Virus genome (UHGV): UHGV-0385766
Strand: one strand, 5' to 3'
Source of the DNA: a virus
DNA: 27,686 nt
The notes under the pieces are model-generated. The model made no database searches and was not told the origin of the DNA. It saw nothing but the letters and a program-made list of their open reading frames with translations. Positions 5,142 to 20,456 of this stretch are shown here, in pieces. Position 1 is the stretch's first letter, and the number at the start of each line of letters is the position of its first letter. A program made the translations under genes and the position numbers.

Positions 5142-5822
5142 ATGCATCGTATAGACACGAAAACCGCGCAGAAGGATAAGTTCGGCGCGGGTAAAAACGG
5201 TTTTACCCGTGGTAACCCCCAGACTGGCACGCCTGCCACCGATCTGGATGATGACTACTTTGACATGTTGCAGGAAGAACTTTGTAGCGTTGTTGAGGCA
5301 TCCGGTGCCAGTCTGGAGAAGGCGCGGCACGACCAGCTGCTTACCGCGCTTCGTGCGCTGCTGTTAAGCCGCAAGAATCCGTTTGGCGATATCAAATCGG
5401 ATGGCACTGTGCAAACGGCTCTCGAAAACCTTGGTTTGGGAGATCTCGGGACAGCATCTGGCCGTAATGTCGGTAATACTCAATCGTTTGAAATACCTGA
5501 TATGAGTTATTTCCAGCTTACAGGGAAAGGCTCTGACAATCTGTTAGCTAAACTTCCCAATGGTTTAATCATCCAGGTCTTTCGGCGTAGGCTTGCCAAC
5601 TCAACATCAATTGGTATGCCGACAACAATCCCTGTCACCTATCCGACACCGTTCCCGACGAATATCTGGGGTGTTTTCTGCACAAAGGCAACTTATGCGC
5701 AAGTTGTGACGTCATGCGAATCAGTCACAGCAACAGGTTTCAATGCCGTAACTTGCTTAACGTCAGGTACGAGCCCCGACTCTAATCTTTCTGACGCTTA
5801 TTTTTTTGCTATTGGATATTAA
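5142..5822 (+). CDS. Tail fibre protein (short; conserved N-terminal anchor, divergent low-GC C-terminal part)
   Basis: 226-aa ORF; N-terminus [21 protein letters not shown] resembles enterobacterial prophage tail fibre N-termini; C-terminal half is visibly more AT-rich. Confidence 0.7.
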
Positions 5823-5824
5823 TT

Positions 5825-6307
5825 ATGACAACTAAAAATGAAGACAAGACTCTTCCGGAGCCGCCCCGCATTCATGGTTTTATCTGGGATGTAAATAATG
5901 TGCGGCTGCTGGCTTATGCACTCCAGACTGAATATCAGGAAAGTGGCATGTGGCCTGAGAATGGTATTGATGTTTCTGATGAGGTATCAGCCGAATTTAC
6001 CGGACAGCCACCGGAAGGAAAAACTATTGGTGTGGGGGATGACGGGATGCCTGCTTGGGTGGATATACCACCACCAACACATGAGGAACAGATTGCTGCA
6101 GCCGAACTGGAAAAGCAGCAATTGATTAATCAGGCTAACAATTATATGAACAGTAAACAATGGCCTGGTAAAGCGGCTATTGGTCGTCTGAAAGGTGAGG
6201 AACTGTCTCAATATAATTTGTGGCTGGATTATCTTGACGCACTGGAAATGGTCGATACTTCCGGCGCTCCGGATATTCAGTGGCCGGAAGAACCAGACAC
6301 AATGTAA
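5825..6307 (+). CDS. Tail fibre assembly protein (chaperone)
   Basis: 160-aa ORF directly after the fibre gene; acidic Tfa-like protein; low GC. Confidence 0.75.
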   Translation: MTTKNEDKTLPEPPRIHGFIWDVNNVRLLAYALQTEYQESGMWPENGIDVSDEVSAEFTGQPPEGKTIGVGDDGMPAWVDIPPPTHEEQIAAAELEKQQLINQANNYMNSKQWPGKAAIGRLKGEELSQYNLWLDYLDALEMVDTSGAPDIQWPEEPDTM

Positions 6308-15706: not shown

Positions 15707-16069
15707 TTAATGACCTGCTGCGCGGAGTTTTCCGTCAGGTTCACCGGCAAGAGTCAGTAATTGTCCCTGGTCTTCCTGCAGAATAGTCAGGCGACCACCG
15801 CGATTGACATACATCGGCGTTTCGGTGGTGTCTTCTTCGGAAATTTTCCCGCGGTTAGTTGGGCGAACATATGAGAGTTTGTGTTTGATTTTCACACGGT
15901 TCTCATCAAACGGTTCGATTTCCAGATTGAGTGAGACCTTCCCTTTGGTTTTCGTGTTCATCACACCGGAAGCGACTTCACTGAGAACTGCGCCGATTTT
16001 GGTTTCAAATACGCCGCCGTCCAGCTCCCCGATAAATGCCTGCACATCAGTACTGCGTTCGCTAGCCAT
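15707..16069 (-). CDS. YfdP-like protein
   Basis: Start MASERSTDVQ at 16069 with GAGGAG Shine-Dalgarno (120 aa); the track ORF extends to 16255 via a TTG start over a structured leader. Confidence 0.5.
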   Translation of the reverse strand: MASERSTDVQAFIGELDGGVFETKIGAVLSEVASGVMNTKTKGKVSLNLEIEPFDENRVKIKHKLSYVRPTNRGKISEEDTTETPMYVNRGGRLTILQEDQGQLLTLAGEPDGKLRAAGH

Positions 16070-16117
16070 TTTGCTGCTCCTCATCATATCGACCCTGCAA
16101 GGTCGGTTGGTTTCTCC

Positions 16118-16206
16118 ACAAAACAGAGAAGAACACCTGCGGTGGCAGCCGCCCGGATGGATTGGGTTATGAGCCCGTCGTCCGGTGATGCTCTTCTCTG
16201 TTTTGT
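16118..16206 (-). other. 15-bp perfect inverted repeat forming a long stem in the leader of the YfdP-like gene
   Basis: ACAAAACAGAGAAGA (16118-16132) and TCTTCTCTGTTTTGT (16192-16206) are exact reverse complements separated by 59 nt; non-coding. Confidence 0.6.
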
Positions 16207-16250
16207 AAAAAGAGCGGTACCAGCCGGAAGCAAGTGTACAAACTGGTACC
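16205..16250 (-). terminator. tL-like intrinsic terminator within the leftward operon
   Basis: GGTACCAG (16216-16223) pairs with CTGGTACC (16243-16250); on the minus strand the stem is followed by GCUCUUUUU. Confidence 0.45.
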
Positions 16251-16510
16251 GCCAAAGCAGTGGCTGTTGTGGTGACCGGTGCTGATCTCCGGCTTGCGGT
16301 TATTTCAGACTCTCACGGGCGTTTAATTGCCCCGCCGAACAGCTCTTTTCCGCAATAGCTGCAATGTCTTTCGCGCATCAGCCTGCGCATTCACCACAAC
16401 GCTAAGGATTCTCTCTGGTTGAAAATACTTAGCTGTTATGTGCCTGTCTTTTCACCACTTCAGGCTCGGTGGTATCTTGGTGTTTTCATATAGCCAAGAA
16501 GGAAATAGTT

Positions 16511-16702
16511 ATGACCAAAGAAGAAAAAATTCTTTATTTATTCCAACTATCGGTTAAGACTCACACTGCATATCAGACTGCTGCCATGACATCAGATAAA
16601 AATTACAGTACGTCAGAAAACCCGATAGACGACATAAGCAAGCTTTACGATAAGTTCGAAGCACTACTCGATAAAAAGTTTGCTGAGGCTGGGCTTGAGT
16701 GA
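16511..16702 (+). CDS. Hypothetical small protein (63 aa), opposite in orientation to the surrounding operon
   Basis: ATG at 16511 with AAGGAAA Shine-Dalgarno 7 nt upstream; the 3' end overlaps a convergent minus-strand ORF by 39 nt. Confidence 0.4.
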   Translation: MTKEEKILYLFQLSVKTHTAYQTAAMTSDKNYSTSENPIDDISKLYDKFEALLDKKFAEAGLE

Positions 16703-16840
16703 TTGTTGAATAATCGACAAAACCCAACTTAAATTTTCGTCAGTGGGCTCGATGCCATGTGCGGTGAGCTCACTTTTCAAAACTCCAAGCAATTCAGAGC
16801 TGATTTTCAATATATCTGCTTGATTTCTAACTATTCCCAC
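16664..16840 (-). CDS. Hypothetical small protein (58 aa)
   Basis: GTG at 16840 preceded by GGAGG (5-nt spacer); the track ATG at 16870 lacks a Shine-Dalgarno. Confidence 0.4.
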   Translation of the reverse strand: MGIVRNQADILKISSELLGVLKSELTAHGIEPTDENLSWVLSIIQQSLKPSLSKLFIE

Positions 16841-16929
16841 TTTTTCCTCCCTTGGTCTACGCGCGGTCATGTTTTACGCCCAAACGACTTCACAGTTATT
16901 GTTTAAAATCTGGACTTTCATTTTGTTCT

Positions 16930-17133: not shown

Positions 17134-17243
17134 TTGCGCTCTCTTACACATAGTATTTAACGAATCATCCGGTCATTCATACGCCACCGGCGGCTACTTC
17201 GTGGGCGTCCTGCCTGTTCGTTACTGCAACATCTTTAAGTTGT

Positions 17244-17272
17244 AATCTAGTTGTTGTTTTGGTTGTTGTCAA
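17244..17272 (-). promoter_or_regulatory. pL-like leftward early promoter
   Basis: On the minus strand: TTGACA (complement of 17267-17272), 17-bp spacer, TAGATT (complement of 17244-17249). Confidence 0.5.
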
Positions 17273-17466: not shown

Positions 17467-18153
17467 TTACCAAGTGCGCGATGACCAGAATACTCTACCT
17501 ATAACGTGAATTCTGGAACGCCTATCTTCGAAGGTGAGTATTTCATCTGGATACTCATCTTTATTGAAACTTCTTAGAATCAGACCACCGTCAGGTAAAT
17601 TGATCAATATTTTAACTCTAAGTAATACGCCATCACGTATGGCATAAAGATCCCCATCACGAATAGGAACCGTTTGGGAAACATCAACAGCAACAAAATC
17701 TCCATTGTTAAGTACAGGTAGTAAACTATTGCCCCAAATTTTTACGATCTTTGCATTGGAGACACATACACCAGCTTTTCTTAAATCAATCCTTCTTAGC
17801 GGGAACCAGTCTACAGTTGATTCAACTATTTCAGCCAAACATCCATTACCCGCTGATAACTCGACATCTAGGACTGGAATGTTTGCAAAAATGTCAGGAT
17901 CTAATGCTGTACTTTCAGCCTCCTTTACAACAAGGTCTGGGAAAGACGCGTTATCCTCAATGCCCAATTGCAACCACTTTTGAGAAACCCCTAACACTTT
18001 AGCAATCTCTTTAATTTTCCGAGGCTGTTGAGTTTCTCCATTCTCGATTTTCGCTACGGATTGTTGTGAAAGCCCAATTTTTTCAGCTAGTTGCGCCTGA
18101 CTCATTCCTGCTTTTTCTCTTTCGCTTTTTAGTCTTTCTGCCAATGTTTTCAC
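17467..18153 (-). CDS. cI: CI-like repressor (N-terminal HTH, C-terminal S24 LexA-like peptidase domain)
   Basis: GTG start with GAGGGGG Shine-Dalgarno; HTH QAQLAEKIGLSQQSVAKIENG; Ala-Gly site (SAGNG) and Ser/Lys dyad region (GNSLLP ... LRVK). Confidence 0.9.
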   Translation of the reverse strand: MKTLAERLKSEREKAGMSQAQLAEKIGLSQQSVAKIENGETQQPRKIKEIAKVLGVSQKWLQLGIEDNASFPDLVVKEAESTALDPDIFANIPVLDVELSAGNGCLAEIVESTVDWFPLRRIDLRKAGVCVSNAKIVKIWGNSLLPVLNNGDFVAVDVSQTVPIRDGDLYAIRDGVLLRVKILINLPDGGLILRSFNKDEYPDEILTFEDRRSRIHVIGRVFWSSRTW

Positions 18154-19507: not shown

Positions 19508-20456
19508 TCTTGCATGCCGTATTGGTCTGAATGAGGCAATTGTGTTGCAGCAGCTTCATTACTGGCTGAATGAAACGAATTCAGGCACTGAGCATGGCGG
19601 AATTCGCTGGGTTTATAACACGACAGAACAGTGGCTGGAGCAGTTTCCGTTCTGGTCAGAGTCCACTCTGAAACGCACATTTGCAAGCCTGAAATCACTT
19701 GGGGTTTTGCGTCGCGAGCAACTCAATAAATCGAAGCGTGACATGACCAACTTCTACACGATCAACTATGAAAGTGAGCTTTTAGAAGAGGTCAAAGTGA
19801 ACGAATCCATCAGGTCAAAATGCACTTCTCCATCGGGTCAAAGTGACCTGATGGATGGGCGCAAAATGATACGATCCATTGGTTCAAAACGACACGCTGT
19901 CATCGGGTCAAAATGGCCCAATGATCTTACAGAGAATACAACAGAGATTACTACAGAGAATAAAACCTCTTCTCGTCCGGACGCTTCGCAACCGGACACG
20001 CAGACGGCTGAACAGGAGTTTTTAACTCGCCATCCTGATGCGGTTGTATTCAGTCCTAAAAAGCGCCAGTGGGGAACGCAGGATGATTTGACCTGCGCAC
20101 AGTGGCTCTGGAAAAAAATCATCGCCCTGTACGAGCAGGCCGCCGAATGTGACGGCGAGGTGGTTCGTCCCAAAGAACCTAACTGGACAGCCTGGGCAAA
20201 CGAAATTCGCCTGATGTGTGTGCAGGATGGTCGTACTCACAAACAAATCTGCGAGATGTACAGCCGCGTCAGCCGCGATCCGTTCTGGTGCCGTAACGTG
20301 CTCAGTCCGTCGAAGCTGCGGGAAAAATGGGATGAGCTTTCCCTGCGCTTATCGCCGTCCGTCAGCACATACACAGAAAAACGCGAAGACCCGTATTTCA
20401 AATCCAGTTACGACAACGTGGACTACAGCCAGATCCCGGCAGGATTCAGGGGGTGA
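19464..20456 (+). CDS. Replication initiator (lambda O-like, iteron-containing)
   Basis: 330-aa ORF with GAGG Shine-Dalgarno; contains iterons and an AT-rich segment in its middle, as in lambda O. Confidence 0.75.
   Translation: MSLLMTSQPIVINRDLACRIGLNEAIVLQQLHYWLNETNSGTEHGGIRWVYNTTEQWLEQFPFWSESTLKRTFASLKSLGVLRREQLNKSKRDMTNFYTINYESELLEEVKVNESIRSKCTSPSGQSDLMDGRKMIRSIGSKRHAVIGSKWPNDLTENTTEITTENKTSSRPDASQPDTQTAEQEFLTRHPDAVVFSPKKRQWGTQDDLTCAQWLWKKIIALYEQAAECDGEVVRPKEPNWTAWANEIRLMCVQDGRTHKQICEMYSRVSRDPFWCRNVLSPSKLREKWDELSLRLSPSVSTYTEKREDPYFKSSYDNVDYSQIPAGFRG
19806..19966 (+). repeat. Origin of replication: iterons plus AT-rich unwinding element
   Basis: TCCATYRGKTCAAARYG-type iterons starting at 19806, 19829, 19875 and 19900, with a degenerate copy near 19852 (about 23-bp period); then ACAGAGAWT at 19929, 19941 and 19953 (12-bp period) in AT-rich sequence. 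Confidence 0.6.

What the first reader, a model, noticed from the sequence alone, without database searches (positions are those of the whole stretch)
16070..16510. About 440 bp of structured non-coding RNA inside the leftward operon: tL-like terminator followed by a 15-bp perfect long-range stem
There is no credible ORF between the YfdP-like start (16069) and the next upstream gene. On the minus-strand transcript a terminator hairpin (GGUACCAG/CUGGUACC plus U-tract, 16250-16205) is immediately followed by a 15-bp perfect inverted repeat (16118-16132 / 16192-16206) enclosing a 59-nt GC-rich loop with sub-hairpins. The whole structure ends about 50 nt before the YfdP-like start codon. A perfect 15-bp duplex is long enough to be an RNase III substrate, so this could be a processing site, an attenuator controlled by antitermination, or a phage small RNA.
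Basis: seen in the sequence. Interest (0 to 1): 0.5.

Follow-up and report, generated by a model that had tools for sequence, protein, structure and literature searches.

The report
Phage sRNA terminator plus conserved leader RNA
The interval holds an already published prophage small RNA (sRNA-17) with its terminator, followed by an undescribed, widely conserved folded RNA that heads phage operons just after a terminator and carries a copy of the initiator-tRNA anticodon arm.

Summary
On the minus strand there is a hairpin plus U-run (16252-16207), then a perfect 15-bp inverted repeat (16206-16192 / 16132-16118). That repeat is unique in the window and absent from 100 resamples.

The first half is known. 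16401-16208 is the 193-nt sRNA-17 of E. coli K1 RS218 (Sun et al. 2020), and the hairpin is its terminator.

The second half is not in Rfam or the searched literature. The 15-bp stem is helix P1 of a ~100-nt three-way-junction RNA (16213-16110). It occurs in at least 120 viral contigs and about 23 Enterobacterales genomes, and in 76 of 80 loci chosen only by YfdP protein. Covariation and G·U pairs place it on the yfdP-sense strand. It nearly always abuts a terminator's U-run. It precedes yfdP, rdgC or xis-like genes, and a variant precedes holins in late operons. Its P2 arm carries a near-invariant motif sharing 14 nt with the tRNA-fMet anticodon arm.

Inferred mechanism: the terminator silences yfdPQR. 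Antiterminated pL transcripts read through and fold the element, and RNase III cuts P1. No cleavage data exist, and the role of the invariant motif is unknown.

The parts
16208..16401 (-). sRNA-17 gene body (193-194 nt), 5' CGUUGUGGUGAAUGCG... 3' ...GGUACCGCUCUUUU. Its 5' end (GUUGUGGUGA, 16400-16391) pairs with UCACCACAAC (16275-16266) just before the terminator.
   Evidence: The 'full length', RACE and northern primers of Sun et al. 2020 and their supplementary alignment match this stretch and strand (against the sequence). The stretch is identical to mEp460 over this span. The 10-bp inverted repeat is I5, and the fold is.
16214..16252 (-). Intrinsic terminator hairpin: 10-12 bp stem, 15-19 nt loop.
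   Evidence: The published 3' RACE end of sRNA-17 lies in the following U-run. In 44 of 54 non-redundant homologues, a stem of 5 bp or more ends within 3 nt of a T-run that abuts P1, and there are about nine different stem sequences.
16207..16213 (-). U-tract UCUUUUU of the terminator. On read-through it can pair with GGAGA (16117-16113) and extend P1 to 25 bp.
   Evidence: pairs 3-127, 4-126, 5-125 and 7-123 are kept in 34-37 of 39 sequences, but those columns do not covary.
16187..16206 (-). P1 5' arm of the post-terminator leader element.
16153..16185 (-). P2 arm: CCGGA/UCCGG closing helix, internal loops, then the hairpin GGG-CUCAUAA-CCC. It contains the near-invariant 21-mer GACGGGCUCAUAACCCAAUCC (16179-16159). 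The segment CGGGCUCAUAACCC is identical to the E. coli tRNA-fMet anticodon arm.
   Evidence: pairs 31-59 and 33-57 covary; metY sequence; variation in loci that were not selected by the motif.
16139..16152 (-). P3 arm (GCGG-CUGCCA-CCGC). It varies in length (14-47 nt) and sequence among homologues, and its loop is often UUGCAG.
   Evidence: (pair 64-98: GC 27 / AU 8 / UA 1).
16118..16137 (-). P1 3' arm.
16110..16117 (-). Conserved single-stranded tail GGAGAAAC.
   Evidence: GGAGA is present in all 39 aligned sequences; the model match ends at 16110.
16090..16105 (-). HP3, a small hairpin CGACCU-UGCA-GGGUCG between the element and the yfdP ribosome-binding site.
   Evidence: A hairpin is present in 52 of 54 representatives with many different stems, and 41 of 54 carry the loop motif (U/G)(U/G)GCAG.
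16067..16082 (-). yfdP Shine-Dalgarno sequence (GAGGAG, 16082-16077) and ATG (16069-16067).
   Evidence: RefSeq CDS WP_000135680.1.
17160..17226 (-). Element X, a second conserved structured RNA that starts 10-25 nt after the candidate pL promoter (TTGACA-17-TAGATT, 17272-17244). It is the proposed (inferred) RNA antiterminator that lets pL transcripts pass the terminator at 16252-16207.
   Evidence: a 28-mer is present in 53 of 166 loci, 350-1800 nt upstream of the leader element, after many different operator/promoter types; 97.3% paired; covariation 0.375 against 0.105 in shuffles.

Best explanation
The interval is the distal part of the long untranslated leader of the prophage's early-left (pL) operon. 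It has two units.

Unit 1 (16401-16208) is the published sRNA-17, which ends at an intrinsic terminator.

Unit 2 (16213-16110) starts at that terminator's U-run. It is a conserved three-way-junction RNA, here called the post-terminator leader element. It is followed by a small hairpin (HP3) and the yfdP ribosome-binding site.

Proposed working:
1. RNA polymerase that is not antiterminated stops at 16207-16211. This yields the short stable RNA and keeps yfdP-yfdQ-yfdR silent in the lysogen.
2. After induction, transcripts from pL read through. They are probably made terminator-resistant by the promoter-proximal RNA element X, which sits where putL sits in HK022.
3. The read-through RNA folds into P1-P2-P3. 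The 20-25 bp P1 duplex is then cut by RNase III. This severs the mRNA from its about 1.1-kb leader and leaves an HP3-capped yfdP mRNA for translation.
4. The cut also releases the P2-P3 domain, whose near-invariant initiator-tRNA-like arm must bind some partner.

Shown: the identity with sRNA-17, the terminator, the fold, its strand, its conservation and its fixed position behind terminators.

Inferred: read-through control by element X, RNase III cleavage, the consequences for translation, and any role of P2.
For: Identity with sRNA-17: the published primers, RACE ends and alignment map to 16208-16401 on the minus strand.

Cis effect: replacing sRNA-17 with a CmR cassette raised the downstream neighbours most. 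yfdP went from 0.49 to 47 reads and yfdR from 0 to 8.5.

Structure:
- 95.3% of cells are paired, against 38-50% when the partners are slid.
- Covariation is 0.156, against 0.086 in shuffles (0 of 500 reach it).
- Pair 16-114 is GC in 22 sequences and CG in 17. RNAalifold finds the same helices.

Strand: U.G at pair 26-104 in 34 of 39 sequences. The covariance model scores 116.6 bits on the sense strand and 43.3 on the antisense strand.

Linkage to terminators: 103 of 106 contexts have a T-run plus a stable hairpin directly upstream. 44 of 54 meet strict criteria, with about nine stem types.

Independence from the downstream gene: the element precedes YfdP, RdgC (PF04381) or an excisionase-like gene. 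76 of 80 loci picked only by YfdP protein have it about 40 nt upstream.

Same design in late operons: terminator, U-run, long helix, same core, then holin, in at least 12 contigs with four holin types.

Operon context: a repressor gene, a pL-like promoter and a covarying element X right after many different immunity promoters. There is no annotated gene in the 630-1000 nt gap between the repressor gene and yfdP in LLS, ST64B and phiNP.
Against: - There are no transcript-end or RNase III data for the element.
- K-12's CPS-53 has lost the element, so published K-12 data sets cannot be used.
- A plain RNase III site would not need an invariant interior, so the model leaves the most conserved part unexplained.
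- Most homologues carry a conserved mismatch in P1 (pair 18-112 is unpaired in 30 of 39). This is compatible with RNase III substrates but not diagnostic.
- Element X shows no convincing sequence homology to HK022 putL, and its minimum-free-energy fold is unremarkable (z = 0.58).
- The yfdP rise in the deletion strain could come from the cassette's promoter rather than from loss of a control element.
- In this window the sequence upstream of 16405 differs from RS218/mEp460, and no good sigma-70 promoter for sRNA-17 was found. The short RNA here may be only a terminated or processed piece of the pL transcript.
Confidence: 0.5

Rival explanations
1. The element is mainly a vehicle for a small stable RNA. 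The P2-P3 domain, clamped or excised by P1, mimics the anticodon arm of initiator tRNA. It would act as a decoy or ligand for something that recognises that arm, such as a tRNA-fMet-cleaving VapC-type toxin, MetRS, or the 30S P site with IF3. It would be produced in bulk at the head of the early and late transcripts.
For: - 14 nt (CGGGCUCAUAACCC) are identical to E. coli metY tRNA-fMet, including the three G-C pairs and the CAU loop.
- My estimate of such a match to any E. coli tRNA arising by chance in a 100-nt element is about 1e-3.
- This is the most conserved block. CUCAU is kept in every copy, including loci that were not selected by the motif.
- The same core sits on quite different helices in late-operon leaders and in one Acidobacteria contig.
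- Leaders of phiNP and Kp4866-6 also carry two T-arm-like hairpins (GGUUCGAUUCC) inside another long helix.
- Hosts of these phages (Shigella, Salmonella) carry VapC toxins that cut tRNA-fMet in this arm. This last point is from my own knowledge and was not tested.
Against: - There is no cloverleaf (ARAGORN finds nothing).
- Only 3 stem pairs match the tRNA; the next positions are mismatched.
- Loop positions 37-38 vary (AA, UA, UC), including the base next to the known VapC cut site.
- There is no evidence that the domain is released or accumulates.
- The searched literature holds no precedent.
Confidence: 0.15
2. The element is a protein-binding translational operator. A phage or host protein would bind the invariant P2 internal loops and/or the recurring U-(G/U)GCA-G hairpins (P3 and HP3). 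This would set translation of the first cistron (yfdP, rdgC or holin) on read-through transcripts.
For: - Sequence invariance lies in loops and internal loops, while the stems covary.
- HP3 lies 8-25 nt before the Shine-Dalgarno sequence in 52 of 54 representatives. Its loop motif is conserved in 41 of 54, on many different stems.
- The same loop recurs in P3.
Against: - No candidate binding protein is shared by all contexts, and the downstream genes differ.
- The small ORFs between pL and the element are not conserved across the family.
- This is purely inferential.
Confidence: 0.15
3. The element itself is a put-like RNA. P2 and P3, two adjacent stem-loops, would bind the transcribing RNA polymerase and make it processive through the terminators further down the long operon.
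For: - It has two adjacent stem-loops of about 70 nt in total, with conserved bulges, as put RNA does.
- It sits at the head of long operons.
- No N-like gene is annotated in many of these phages.
Against: - It lies after, not before, the terminator it is welded to.
- In late operons a Q-type antiterminator gene is already present upstream.
- It has no sequence similarity to putL.
- A better-placed candidate (element X) exists next to pL.
Confidence: 0.08
4. There is no RNA function. The conserved block would be a DNA-level 'linker' at a mosaic module boundary, a decayed tRNA gene or att relic, or part of a protein-coding gene as annotated in SfII and mEp460.
For: - Flanking modules differ on both sides while the block stays about 95-100% identical among E. 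coli and Shigella phages.
- Depositors annotated ORFs across it.
- Sense-strand frames are often open.
Against: - Compensatory double changes occur at 8 pairs, and strand-specific G.U pairs are present.
- The length varies by non-multiples of 3, and some copies have stops in all frames.
- The conserved spatial coupling to a terminator and a ribosome-binding site would not be expected of a DNA linker.
Confidence: 0.04

Closest known systems
sRNA-17 of E. coli K1 RS218 (Sun et al. 2020, Front Microbiol 11:574833; PMC7719688)
   Same: It is the same sequence, on the same strand, in the same mEp460-like prophage position upstream of yfdP.
   Different: - The paper treats it as a free-standing ArcA-regulated trans-acting sRNA and does not mention the downstream hairpin or the operon context.
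- In this window the promoter region containing the ArcA site is replaced by SfII-like sequence.
- The strongest 'targets' reported, yfdP and yfdR, are the cis-downstream genes.
Phage lambda pL leader: the RNase III site between nutL and the N ribosome-binding site, and terminator tL1 (own knowledge)
   Same: A long duplex lies in the early-left leader just upstream of the first gene's ribosome-binding site, on transcripts that depend on antitermination.
   Different: - There is no sequence relation and no nut boxA/boxB.
- Here the hairpin is welded to a terminator and has a conserved branched interior.
- Cleavage has not been shown.
Lambda 6S RNA / tR' and Q antitermination (own knowledge)
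   Same: A short (about 194 nt) terminated leader transcript is made in the absence of antitermination. The late-operon variants of the element sit exactly between a tR'-like terminator and the holin gene.
   Different: Lambda has no comparable conserved structured element after tR'. The window copy is in the early-left operon, not the late one.
HK022 put RNAs (King et al. 1996; Hwang et al. 2022, PMC9378689)
   Same: They are protein-independent RNA control of terminator read-through in an N-less lambdoid phage. Element X at 17226-17160 has putL's position and size and two covarying stems.
   Different: There is no convincing sequence homology, and Rfam has no put model to test against. The element in the finding lies downstream of a terminator, which is the wrong side for put.
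Lambda sib/tI retroregulation (own knowledge)
   Same: A terminator and an RNase III duplex are juxtaposed, and the duplex can only form on read-through transcripts.
   Different: In sib the terminator stem is itself part of the RNase III stem, and the site lies downstream of the regulated gene (int). Here only the U-run joins the duplex, and the site is upstream of the genes.
tRNA-fMet anticodon arm, and tRNA-mimicking mRNA operators such as the E. coli thrS operator (own knowledge)
   Same: It is a hairpin in an mRNA leader that copies a tRNA anticodon arm. 14 nt are identical to metY.
   Different: No cognate binding protein is known. Only three stem pairs are kept, and there is no cloverleaf.

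Membership tests
Intrinsic (Rho-independent) terminator | G+C-rich hairpin immediately followed by a U-run on the transcribed strand | tested here: met
   A 10-12 bp stem at 16252-16214 is followed by UCUUUUU at 16213-16207. The simple scanner missed it because its loop limit is 8 nt.
Intrinsic (Rho-independent) terminator | A transcript 3' end maps in the U-run | tested here: met
   The published 3' RACE end and the 'full-length' primer AAAAGAGCGGTACC... of sRNA-17 map to 16208 in an identical sequence. This was not measured in this strain.
Intrinsic (Rho-independent) terminator | The hairpin is conserved as structure rather than as sequence in homologues | tested here: met
   44 of 54 representatives have a stem of 5 bp or more ending within 3 nt of a T-run of 4 or more. 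About nine stem sequence types occur, including GCGGTACCAG, GTCGGCGTC, GGCGGTTATCCA, TGCCCATC and GCGGCATC.
sRNA-17 (Sun et al. 2020) | Sequence and strand identical to the RACE-defined 193-nt RNA | tested here: met
   The primers and supplementary alignment match the window at 16208-16401 on the minus strand. The window equals mEp460 over this span.
sRNA-17 (Sun et al. 2020) | Own ArcA-bound promoter directly upstream | tested here: not met
   Upstream of about 16405 the window follows SfII, not mEp460/RS218. No consensus sigma-70 promoter was found. By eye only a weak GAGAAT -10 lies 7 nt before 16401.
RNase III processing site (lambda N-leader / T7 R1.1 type) | About two turns (20 bp or more) of RNA duplex, possibly with small internal loops | tested here: met
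   P1 has 20 pairs, or 25 with the U-run. It is kept in 39 of 39 homologues at 94% pairing.
RNase III processing site (lambda N-leader / T7 R1.1 type) | rnc-dependent staggered cleavage in the duplex | not testable with these tools
   No end-mapping data are available. K-12 lacks the element.
HK022 put RNA | Lies downstream of the promoter and upstream of the terminators it suppresses | tested here: not met
   The element starts at the U-run of the terminator. Element X at 17226-17160 does meet this criterion.
HK022 put RNA | Sequence or structure similarity to putL/putR | tested here: not met
   A by-eye comparison with HK022 putL found only ACGAAC and GGAUGA shared with element X, and nothing shared with P1-P3. 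Rfam holds no put model.
tRNA or tRNA-like gene | Cloverleaf detectable by a tRNA finder | tested here: not met
   ARAGORN found 0 genes in the window and in 17 related loci.
tRNA or tRNA-like gene | Anticodon stem-loop identity with initiator tRNA | tested here: met
   CGGGCTCATAACCC (within 16177-16164) equals metY positions 28-41. The flanking stem positions do not pair.
Any described RNA family (Rfam 15) | Match at or near a family's gathering score | tested here: not met
   There was no hit in the window at gathering threshold. Permissive search gave only chance-level hits at E greater than 7. There was none over the element in 10 related loci.
Lambda sib/tI-type retroregulator | Located downstream of the regulated gene, with the terminator stem forming part of the RNase III duplex | tested here: not met
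   The element lies upstream of yfdP. The terminator hairpin and P1 are separate helices, and only the U-run is shared.

The most novel reading that the evidence does not exclude
Lambdoid prophages of Enterobacterales place, right behind the gate-keeping terminators of their early-left and late operons, a dedicated RNA domain that copies the anticodon arm of initiator tRNA. It would be made only when the phage switches to lytic transcription. It would act on the translation-initiation machinery or on a tRNA-fMet-directed nuclease, for example as a decoy against VapC-type toxins or as a cis-acting P-site ligand that loads 30S subunits on the first cistron. sRNA-17 would then be merely the terminated stump of this system.
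Probability: 0.12. Interest if true: 0.85.

Novelty: new variant of a known kind. Interest (0 to 1): 0.58.

Why it matters
1. It re-reads a published 'virulence sRNA'. sRNA-17 sits in the leader of a prophage early operon and ends at the operon's gate terminator. Its strongest reported 'targets' are the cis-downstream genes. Phenotypes of the marked deletion may therefore reflect de-silencing of prophage genes such as yfdR, whose product binds DnaA according to the title of PMC4776307.

2. It defines a widespread, covariation-supported RNA motif that is absent from Rfam. The motif is found in hundreds of Enterobacterales prophages, including Stx2-converting, SfII/SfIV/SfV, ST64B and Klebsiella phages. 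It has a fixed place behind antitermination-controlled terminators in two different operon types.

3. Together with element X at pL, it suggests that a large group of N-less lambdoid phages runs its early-left operon by RNA-only devices. That would make an HK022-like strategy common rather than exotic, and directly testable.

4. The exact copy of the initiator-tRNA anticodon arm is an unexplained feature with a specific set of candidate partners that can be tested.

Tried and rejected
- **Rfam.** Gathering and permissive searches on the window and on 10 homologous loci found no family over the element.
- **Hairpin ribozyme.** A 14.5-bit hit on the plus strand (AAACAGAGAAG) was rejected. It is on the wrong strand, has no structure support, and the matching bases vary in homologues.
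- **tRNA/tmRNA genes.** None were found.
- **Protein-coding readings.** SfII_35, mEp460_036, the in-frame 182-aa extension of yfdP and a 25-aa ORF in sRNA-17 were rejected. Reasons are indels that are not multiples of 3, stops in some copies, and covariation.
- **Homology to the E. coli metY-rimP leader**, which has a tRNA-fMet gene, terminators and RNase III sites. No similarity was seen beyond the anticodon arm.
- **HK022 putL.** There was no convincing similarity to either RNA element.
- **K-12 data.** CPS-53 has a deletion that removes everything upstream of -20 of yfdP, so K-12 transcriptomics cannot help.
- **A second copy in the window**, for example behind the Q-like gene. None was found.
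- **Pairing of 16265-16255 with the yfdP start region**. It is probably fortuitous, because the two modules are not co-inherited.
- **An ops/RfaH site** in the GGCGGTA of the terminator arm. By eye it matches 8 of 12 positions and lacks the C3:G8 pair, so it was not pursued.
- **Cross-phylum hits** to the 21-mer (L139, L140). About one chance match is expected in 596 Gb (my arithmetic). L139 lies inside a gene and is treated as chance. L140 sits at the tip of a strong hairpin (z = -4.64) and is kept only as a lead.
- **Failed script.** Loading HK022 (L155) into the sandbox failed, so that comparison was done by eye.
- **Unplanned use of a capped scan.** It still served as the motif-independent test.
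Full report
**1. What is in the sequence**

Read on the minus strand, which is the sense strand of yfdP-yfdQ-yfdR, the interval contains these features in order:
- A hairpin GCGGUACCAG(UU)...(GG)CUGGUACCGC at 16252-16214.
- UCUUUUU at 16213-16207.
- With no spacer, a long inverted repeat. It is 15 bp perfect (16206-16192 / 16132-16118). As RNA it is continuous to 20 bp through G.U pairs, and it reaches 25 bp if the U-run pairs with GGAGA.

Between the arms the fold is not a loop but two arms:
- P2 (16185-16153): CCGGA/UCCGG enclosing GGG-CUCAUAA-CCC.
- P3 (16152-16139): GCGG-CUGCCA-CCGC.

Downstream follow a conserved GGAGAAAC (16117-16110), a small hairpin HP3 (16105-16090), the GAGGAG Shine-Dalgarno sequence and the yfdP ATG at 16069.

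The 15-bp perfect repeat is the only one of its kind in the window, and none arose in 100 Markov resamples. The minus-strand fold has z = -6.98, against -3.95 for the plus strand.

**2. Context**

The window is identical to a prophage of E. coli K-15KW01 inserted next to zur/dinF. Reading leftward, the order is:
- the CI-like repressor gene (17467-18153);
- a pL-like promoter, TTGACA-17-TAGATT, at 17272-17244;
- a ClpX-type zinc-finger ORF;
- an unannotated 68-aa ORF, overlapped by a rightward 63-aa gene (16511-16702);
- the interval in question;
- yfdP, yfdQ (DUF2303), yfdR and further early-left genes.

RefSeq annotates nothing in 16070-16510.

**3. The first half is already known**

A literature search for yfdP plus sRNA returned Sun et al. 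2020 (PMC7719688). They mapped a 193-nt RNA, sRNA-17, by 5'/3' RACE and northern blot in the mEp460-like prophage of E. coli K1 RS218.

Several of their sequences match the window at 16208-16401, with the RNA on the minus strand:
- the 'full-length' primers AAAAGAGCGGTACCAGCC... and CGTTGTGGTGAATGCGCAGG...;
- the antisense 5'-RACE primers and the northern probe;
- their supplementary alignment.

The window and mEp460 are identical across this stretch.

Two qualifications apply:
- Upstream of about 16405 the window follows phage SfII rather than mEp460/RS218. The ArcA-bound promoter fragment of the paper is absent, and I found no good sigma-70 promoter.
- The 5'-end block CGUUGUGGUGAAUGCG is conserved in LLS, ST64B, phiNP, Kp4866-6 and SfII. 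In phiNP and ST64B it doubles as the 3' arm of yet another long hairpin, itself preceded by another terminator in ST64B. The mapped 5' end could therefore be a processing product of a longer leader.

In the paper the deletion was a CmR-cassette replacement. By far the strongest changes were in the cis-downstream genes: yfdP went from 0.49 to 47 reads and yfdR from 0 to 8.5. That points to a cis effect on the operon rather than trans regulation.

**4. The second half is a conserved RNA element that is not in the libraries**

BLAST with 16085-16260 hit 71 phage records. E. coli and Shigella phages (mEp460, cdtI, Stx2a/Stx2c/Stx2k phages, SfII, SfIV, SfV) match at 94-100%. Salmonella ST64B, Klebsiella, Citrobacter phiNP and E. 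coli LLS/Flotzy match at about 85%, and only over the long hairpin.

In ST64B, phiNP and LLS the repressor gene is followed by 630-1000 nt without any annotated gene. Then comes the hairpin, then yfdP.

An exact scan for the most conserved 21-mer, GACGGGCTCATNACCCAATCC, gave:
- 26 genome contigs from Escherichia, Shigella, Citrobacter, Enterobacter, Kosakonia, Leclercia, Klebsiella, Raoultella, Phytobacter, Mixta, Erwinia, Pantoea and others.

A 39-sequence non-redundant alignment (A3) supports the fold:
- 95.3% of cells are paired, against 38-50% when partners are slid by 1-3 columns.
- The covariation score is 0.156, against 0.086 in shuffles (0 of 500 reach it).
- Clear double changes occur at pair 16-114 (GC 22 / CG 17), 11-119 (CG 30 / AU 4 / UG 2), 19-111 (AU 34 / GC 4), 22-108 (AU 31 / GC 7), 31-59 (GC 36 / AU 3), 33-57 (GC 30 / AU 4 / GU 4) and 64-98 (GC 27 / AU 8).
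- RNAalifold predicts the same P1 and P2 on its own.

The strand is settled by the U.G pair at 26-104 in 34 of 39 sequences and G.U at 10-120 in 12 of 39. A covariance model built from A3 scores 116.6 bits on the yfdP-sense strand against 43.3 on the other.

Pair 18-112 is a mismatch in 30 of 39 sequences. The 'perfect 15 bp' is thus a peculiarity of the E. coli copies, and the family feature is an imperfect helix of about 20 bp.

Rfam 15 has no matching family, either in the window or in ten homologous loci. ARAGORN sees no tRNA. Coding is excluded by lengths of 104-131 nt that differ by non-multiples of three, and by copies with stops in all frames.

**5. A motif-independent test**

The 21-mer scan forces invariance of the core. 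I therefore collected 80 metagenome loci using only YfdP protein similarity and searched them with the model.
- 76 have a full-length sense-strand match ending about 40 nt before yfdP.
- The four exceptions are two K-12-type deletions, one other junction and one contig with no upstream sequence.
- 65 of the 80 carry the exact 21-mer.
- The variants keep CUCAU and the G-C pairs. They change the last two loop bases (AA to UA or UC) or change AAUCC to AACCC.

**6. Fixed coupling to a terminator, free choice of downstream gene**

Coupling to a terminator:
- In 103 of 106 distinct contexts, a T-run and a stable hairpin lie directly upstream of P1.
- With strict criteria, 44 of 54 representatives qualify.
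- The stems fall into about nine unrelated sequence types. This is the signature of a conserved terminator rather than conserved sequence.

Choice of downstream gene:
- The first gene is yfdP in most contexts, but an RdgC homologue (PF04381, E = 1e-112 and 1e-30) or an excisionase-like protein in others.
- HP3 is present in 52 of 54 representatives with many different stems. 41 of 54 share the loop motif (U/G)(U/G)GCAG, which also recurs in P3.

**7. The same core in late operons**

Some 21-mer hits had a different scaffold: L009, L141, L151 and 10 more contigs found with a scaffold-specific pattern. In these the order is:
- a Q-type gene region;
- one or two terminators with U-runs;
- a long helix, for example CACAAUA...UAUUGUG in L151;
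- the identical core;
- a P3-like arm;
- a ribosome-binding site and a holin, of four different types;
- endolysin and spanin.

The module is thus used behind the gate terminator of both lytic operons.

One Acidobacteria metagenome contig (L140) has the 21-mer at the tip of a strong hairpin next to a lysozyme-like gene. About one chance match is expected in a 596-Gb collection (my arithmetic), so I keep it only as a lead.

**8. The invariant motif**

The E. coli initiator tRNA gene metY reads ...GCTCGTCGGGCTCATAACCCGAAGATCG.... The element shares CGGGCTCATAACCC, which is the three G-C pairs and the CAU loop that define initiator tRNA.

I estimate the chance of a 14-nt match between a 100-nt element and any E. 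coli tRNA at about 1e-3, and the match falls on the most conserved block. Beyond the three G-C pairs the stem does not continue.

The leaders of phiNP and Kp4866-6 contain, inside another long helix, two hairpins with canonical T-arm sequence (GGUUCGAUUCC). I found no literature on such mimics in phage leaders.

**9. How the terminator might be passed**

Ten to 25 nt after the pL-like promoter lies a second conserved RNA, element X (17226-17160):

(A/G)CGAACAGGCAGGACGCCCACGAAGUAGCCGCC-[stem]-AUGAUUCG(U/C)

- Its 28-nt core is present in 53 of the 166 loci held at the time, 350-1800 nt upstream of the leader element.
- It always follows promoters and operators of many different immunity types.
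- Two helices covary: 97.3% paired, score 0.375 against 0.105, and pairs 39-56 and 41-54 each show three pair types.

This is the position and size of putL in HK022, which needs no N protein. I could not show sequence homology, and Rfam offers no put model. That element X confers read-through is an inference.

**10. Mechanism I commit to (confidence about 0.5 for the whole chain)**

Shown:
- Unit 1 is sRNA-17 with an intrinsic terminator.
- Unit 2 is a structured, strand-specific, widely conserved RNA welded to that terminator and placed before the first ribosome-binding site of the operon.

Inferred:
- Unmodified polymerase stops at 16207-16211, which keeps yfdPQR silent.
- pL transcripts that are made terminator-resistant (element X) read through and fold the element.
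- RNase III cuts the 20-25 bp P1, detaching the mRNA from its about 1.1-kb leader and leaving an HP3-capped message. This parallels the RNase III site in lambda's N leader.
- The released or clamped P2-P3 domain has a function of its own that explains its invariance.

Rivals are:
- an initiator-tRNA-arm decoy or ligand (0.15);
- a protein-bound translational operator (0.15);
- a put-like polymerase modifier (0.08);
- no RNA function (0.04).

**11. Verdict**

The small RNA and its terminator are already known. The long-stem element is a real, undescribed RNA motif of a familiar general kind (a phage leader RNA) with unusual features: post-terminator placement in two operon types, and an initiator-tRNA anticodon-arm copy. 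Its function remains to be shown.

Noticed in passing
window 17160-17226 (minus strand), promoter candidate 17244-17272: Element X is a roughly 67-nt conserved RNA with two covarying helices, starting 10-25 nt after the pL-like promoter. Its 28-nt core occurs in 53 of 166 related loci, always right behind immunity-specific promoters of many types. It has the same position and size as HK022 putL but no clear homology, and it is not in Rfam.
   Followed up: partly
L009, L021, L141, L151, L157-L166 (e.g. L009 84-200; L151 4870-4990 minus strand): A late-operon version of the leader element. The same 21-nt core sits on a different long helix, between tR'-like terminators and holin genes of four types, followed by endolysin and spanin.
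   Followed up: partly
L006 (phiNP) 2185-2325; Kp4866-6 L005, homologous region: Another long-range hairpin lies further upstream in the same leaders (arms CACAACGAUGAGAGCA / UGCUCUCUUCGUUGUG, paralogous to P1). It encloses two hairpins with canonical tRNA T-arm sequence (GGUUCGAUUCC). The fold has z = -4.32. It is absent from the window.
   Followed up: partly
window 16511-16702 (+) and 16664-16870 (-): A rightward 63-aa gene (WP_000159356.1, no Pfam match) sits antisense inside the leftward leader. It overlaps an unannotated leftward 68-aa ORF with an arginine-rich N-terminus (MTARRPREEK), which is in the position where lambda has N. At most one of the two is likely to be real.
   Followed up: no
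window 16255-16265 versus 16064-16080 (minus strand): The segment just upstream of the terminator (CAGCCACUGCU) is complementary to the yfdP Shine-Dalgarno/AUG region (AGCAG-CAAAA-UGGCU), and they pair in the 342-nt minimum-free-energy fold. The two modules are not co-inherited in other phages, so this is probably fortuitous. It could still contribute to the reported rise in yfdP transcript when sRNA-17 is deleted.
   Followed up: partly
window 16313-16390 (minus strand): A 25-codon ORF lies inside sRNA-17 (MRRLMRERHCSYCGKELFGGAIKRP) and contains a CxxC pair. It starts 11 nt from the mapped 5' end. It has no proper Shine-Dalgarno spacing and is not conserved in the SfII/ST64B-type version.
   Followed up: no
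L002 (mEp460) 5845-6033: An isrK Hfq-binding RNA (67 bits) and a C4 antisense RNA (83.6 bits) lie side by side in the pR-side Rha/antirepressor region of mEp460. The window gave no Rfam hit at all.
   Followed up: no
L156 (E. coli K-12 CPS-53) 5240-5620: In K-12 the whole leader, including the element, is deleted. Iteron-like repeats (GATTTTGACGGGTCA and similar) abut yfdP about 20 nt before its Shine-Dalgarno sequence, so K-12 yfdPQRST has lost its native control region.
   Followed up: partly
window 5219-5316 and 19805-19857: These are the only other perfect inverted repeats of 12 bp or more with short spacers in the window: 12 bp at 5219/5305 and 13 bp at 19805/19845. They were not examined.
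   Followed up: no
L140 (Acidobacteriaceae MAG contig PMHC01000083.1) 2540-2640 minus strand: The exact 21-mer core sits at the tip of an 18-bp interrupted hairpin (z = -4.64). It lies between a proline-rich small ORF and an 83-aa ORF, near a lysozyme-like gene. About one chance hit is expected in the collection, so its homology is uncertain.
   Followed up: partly
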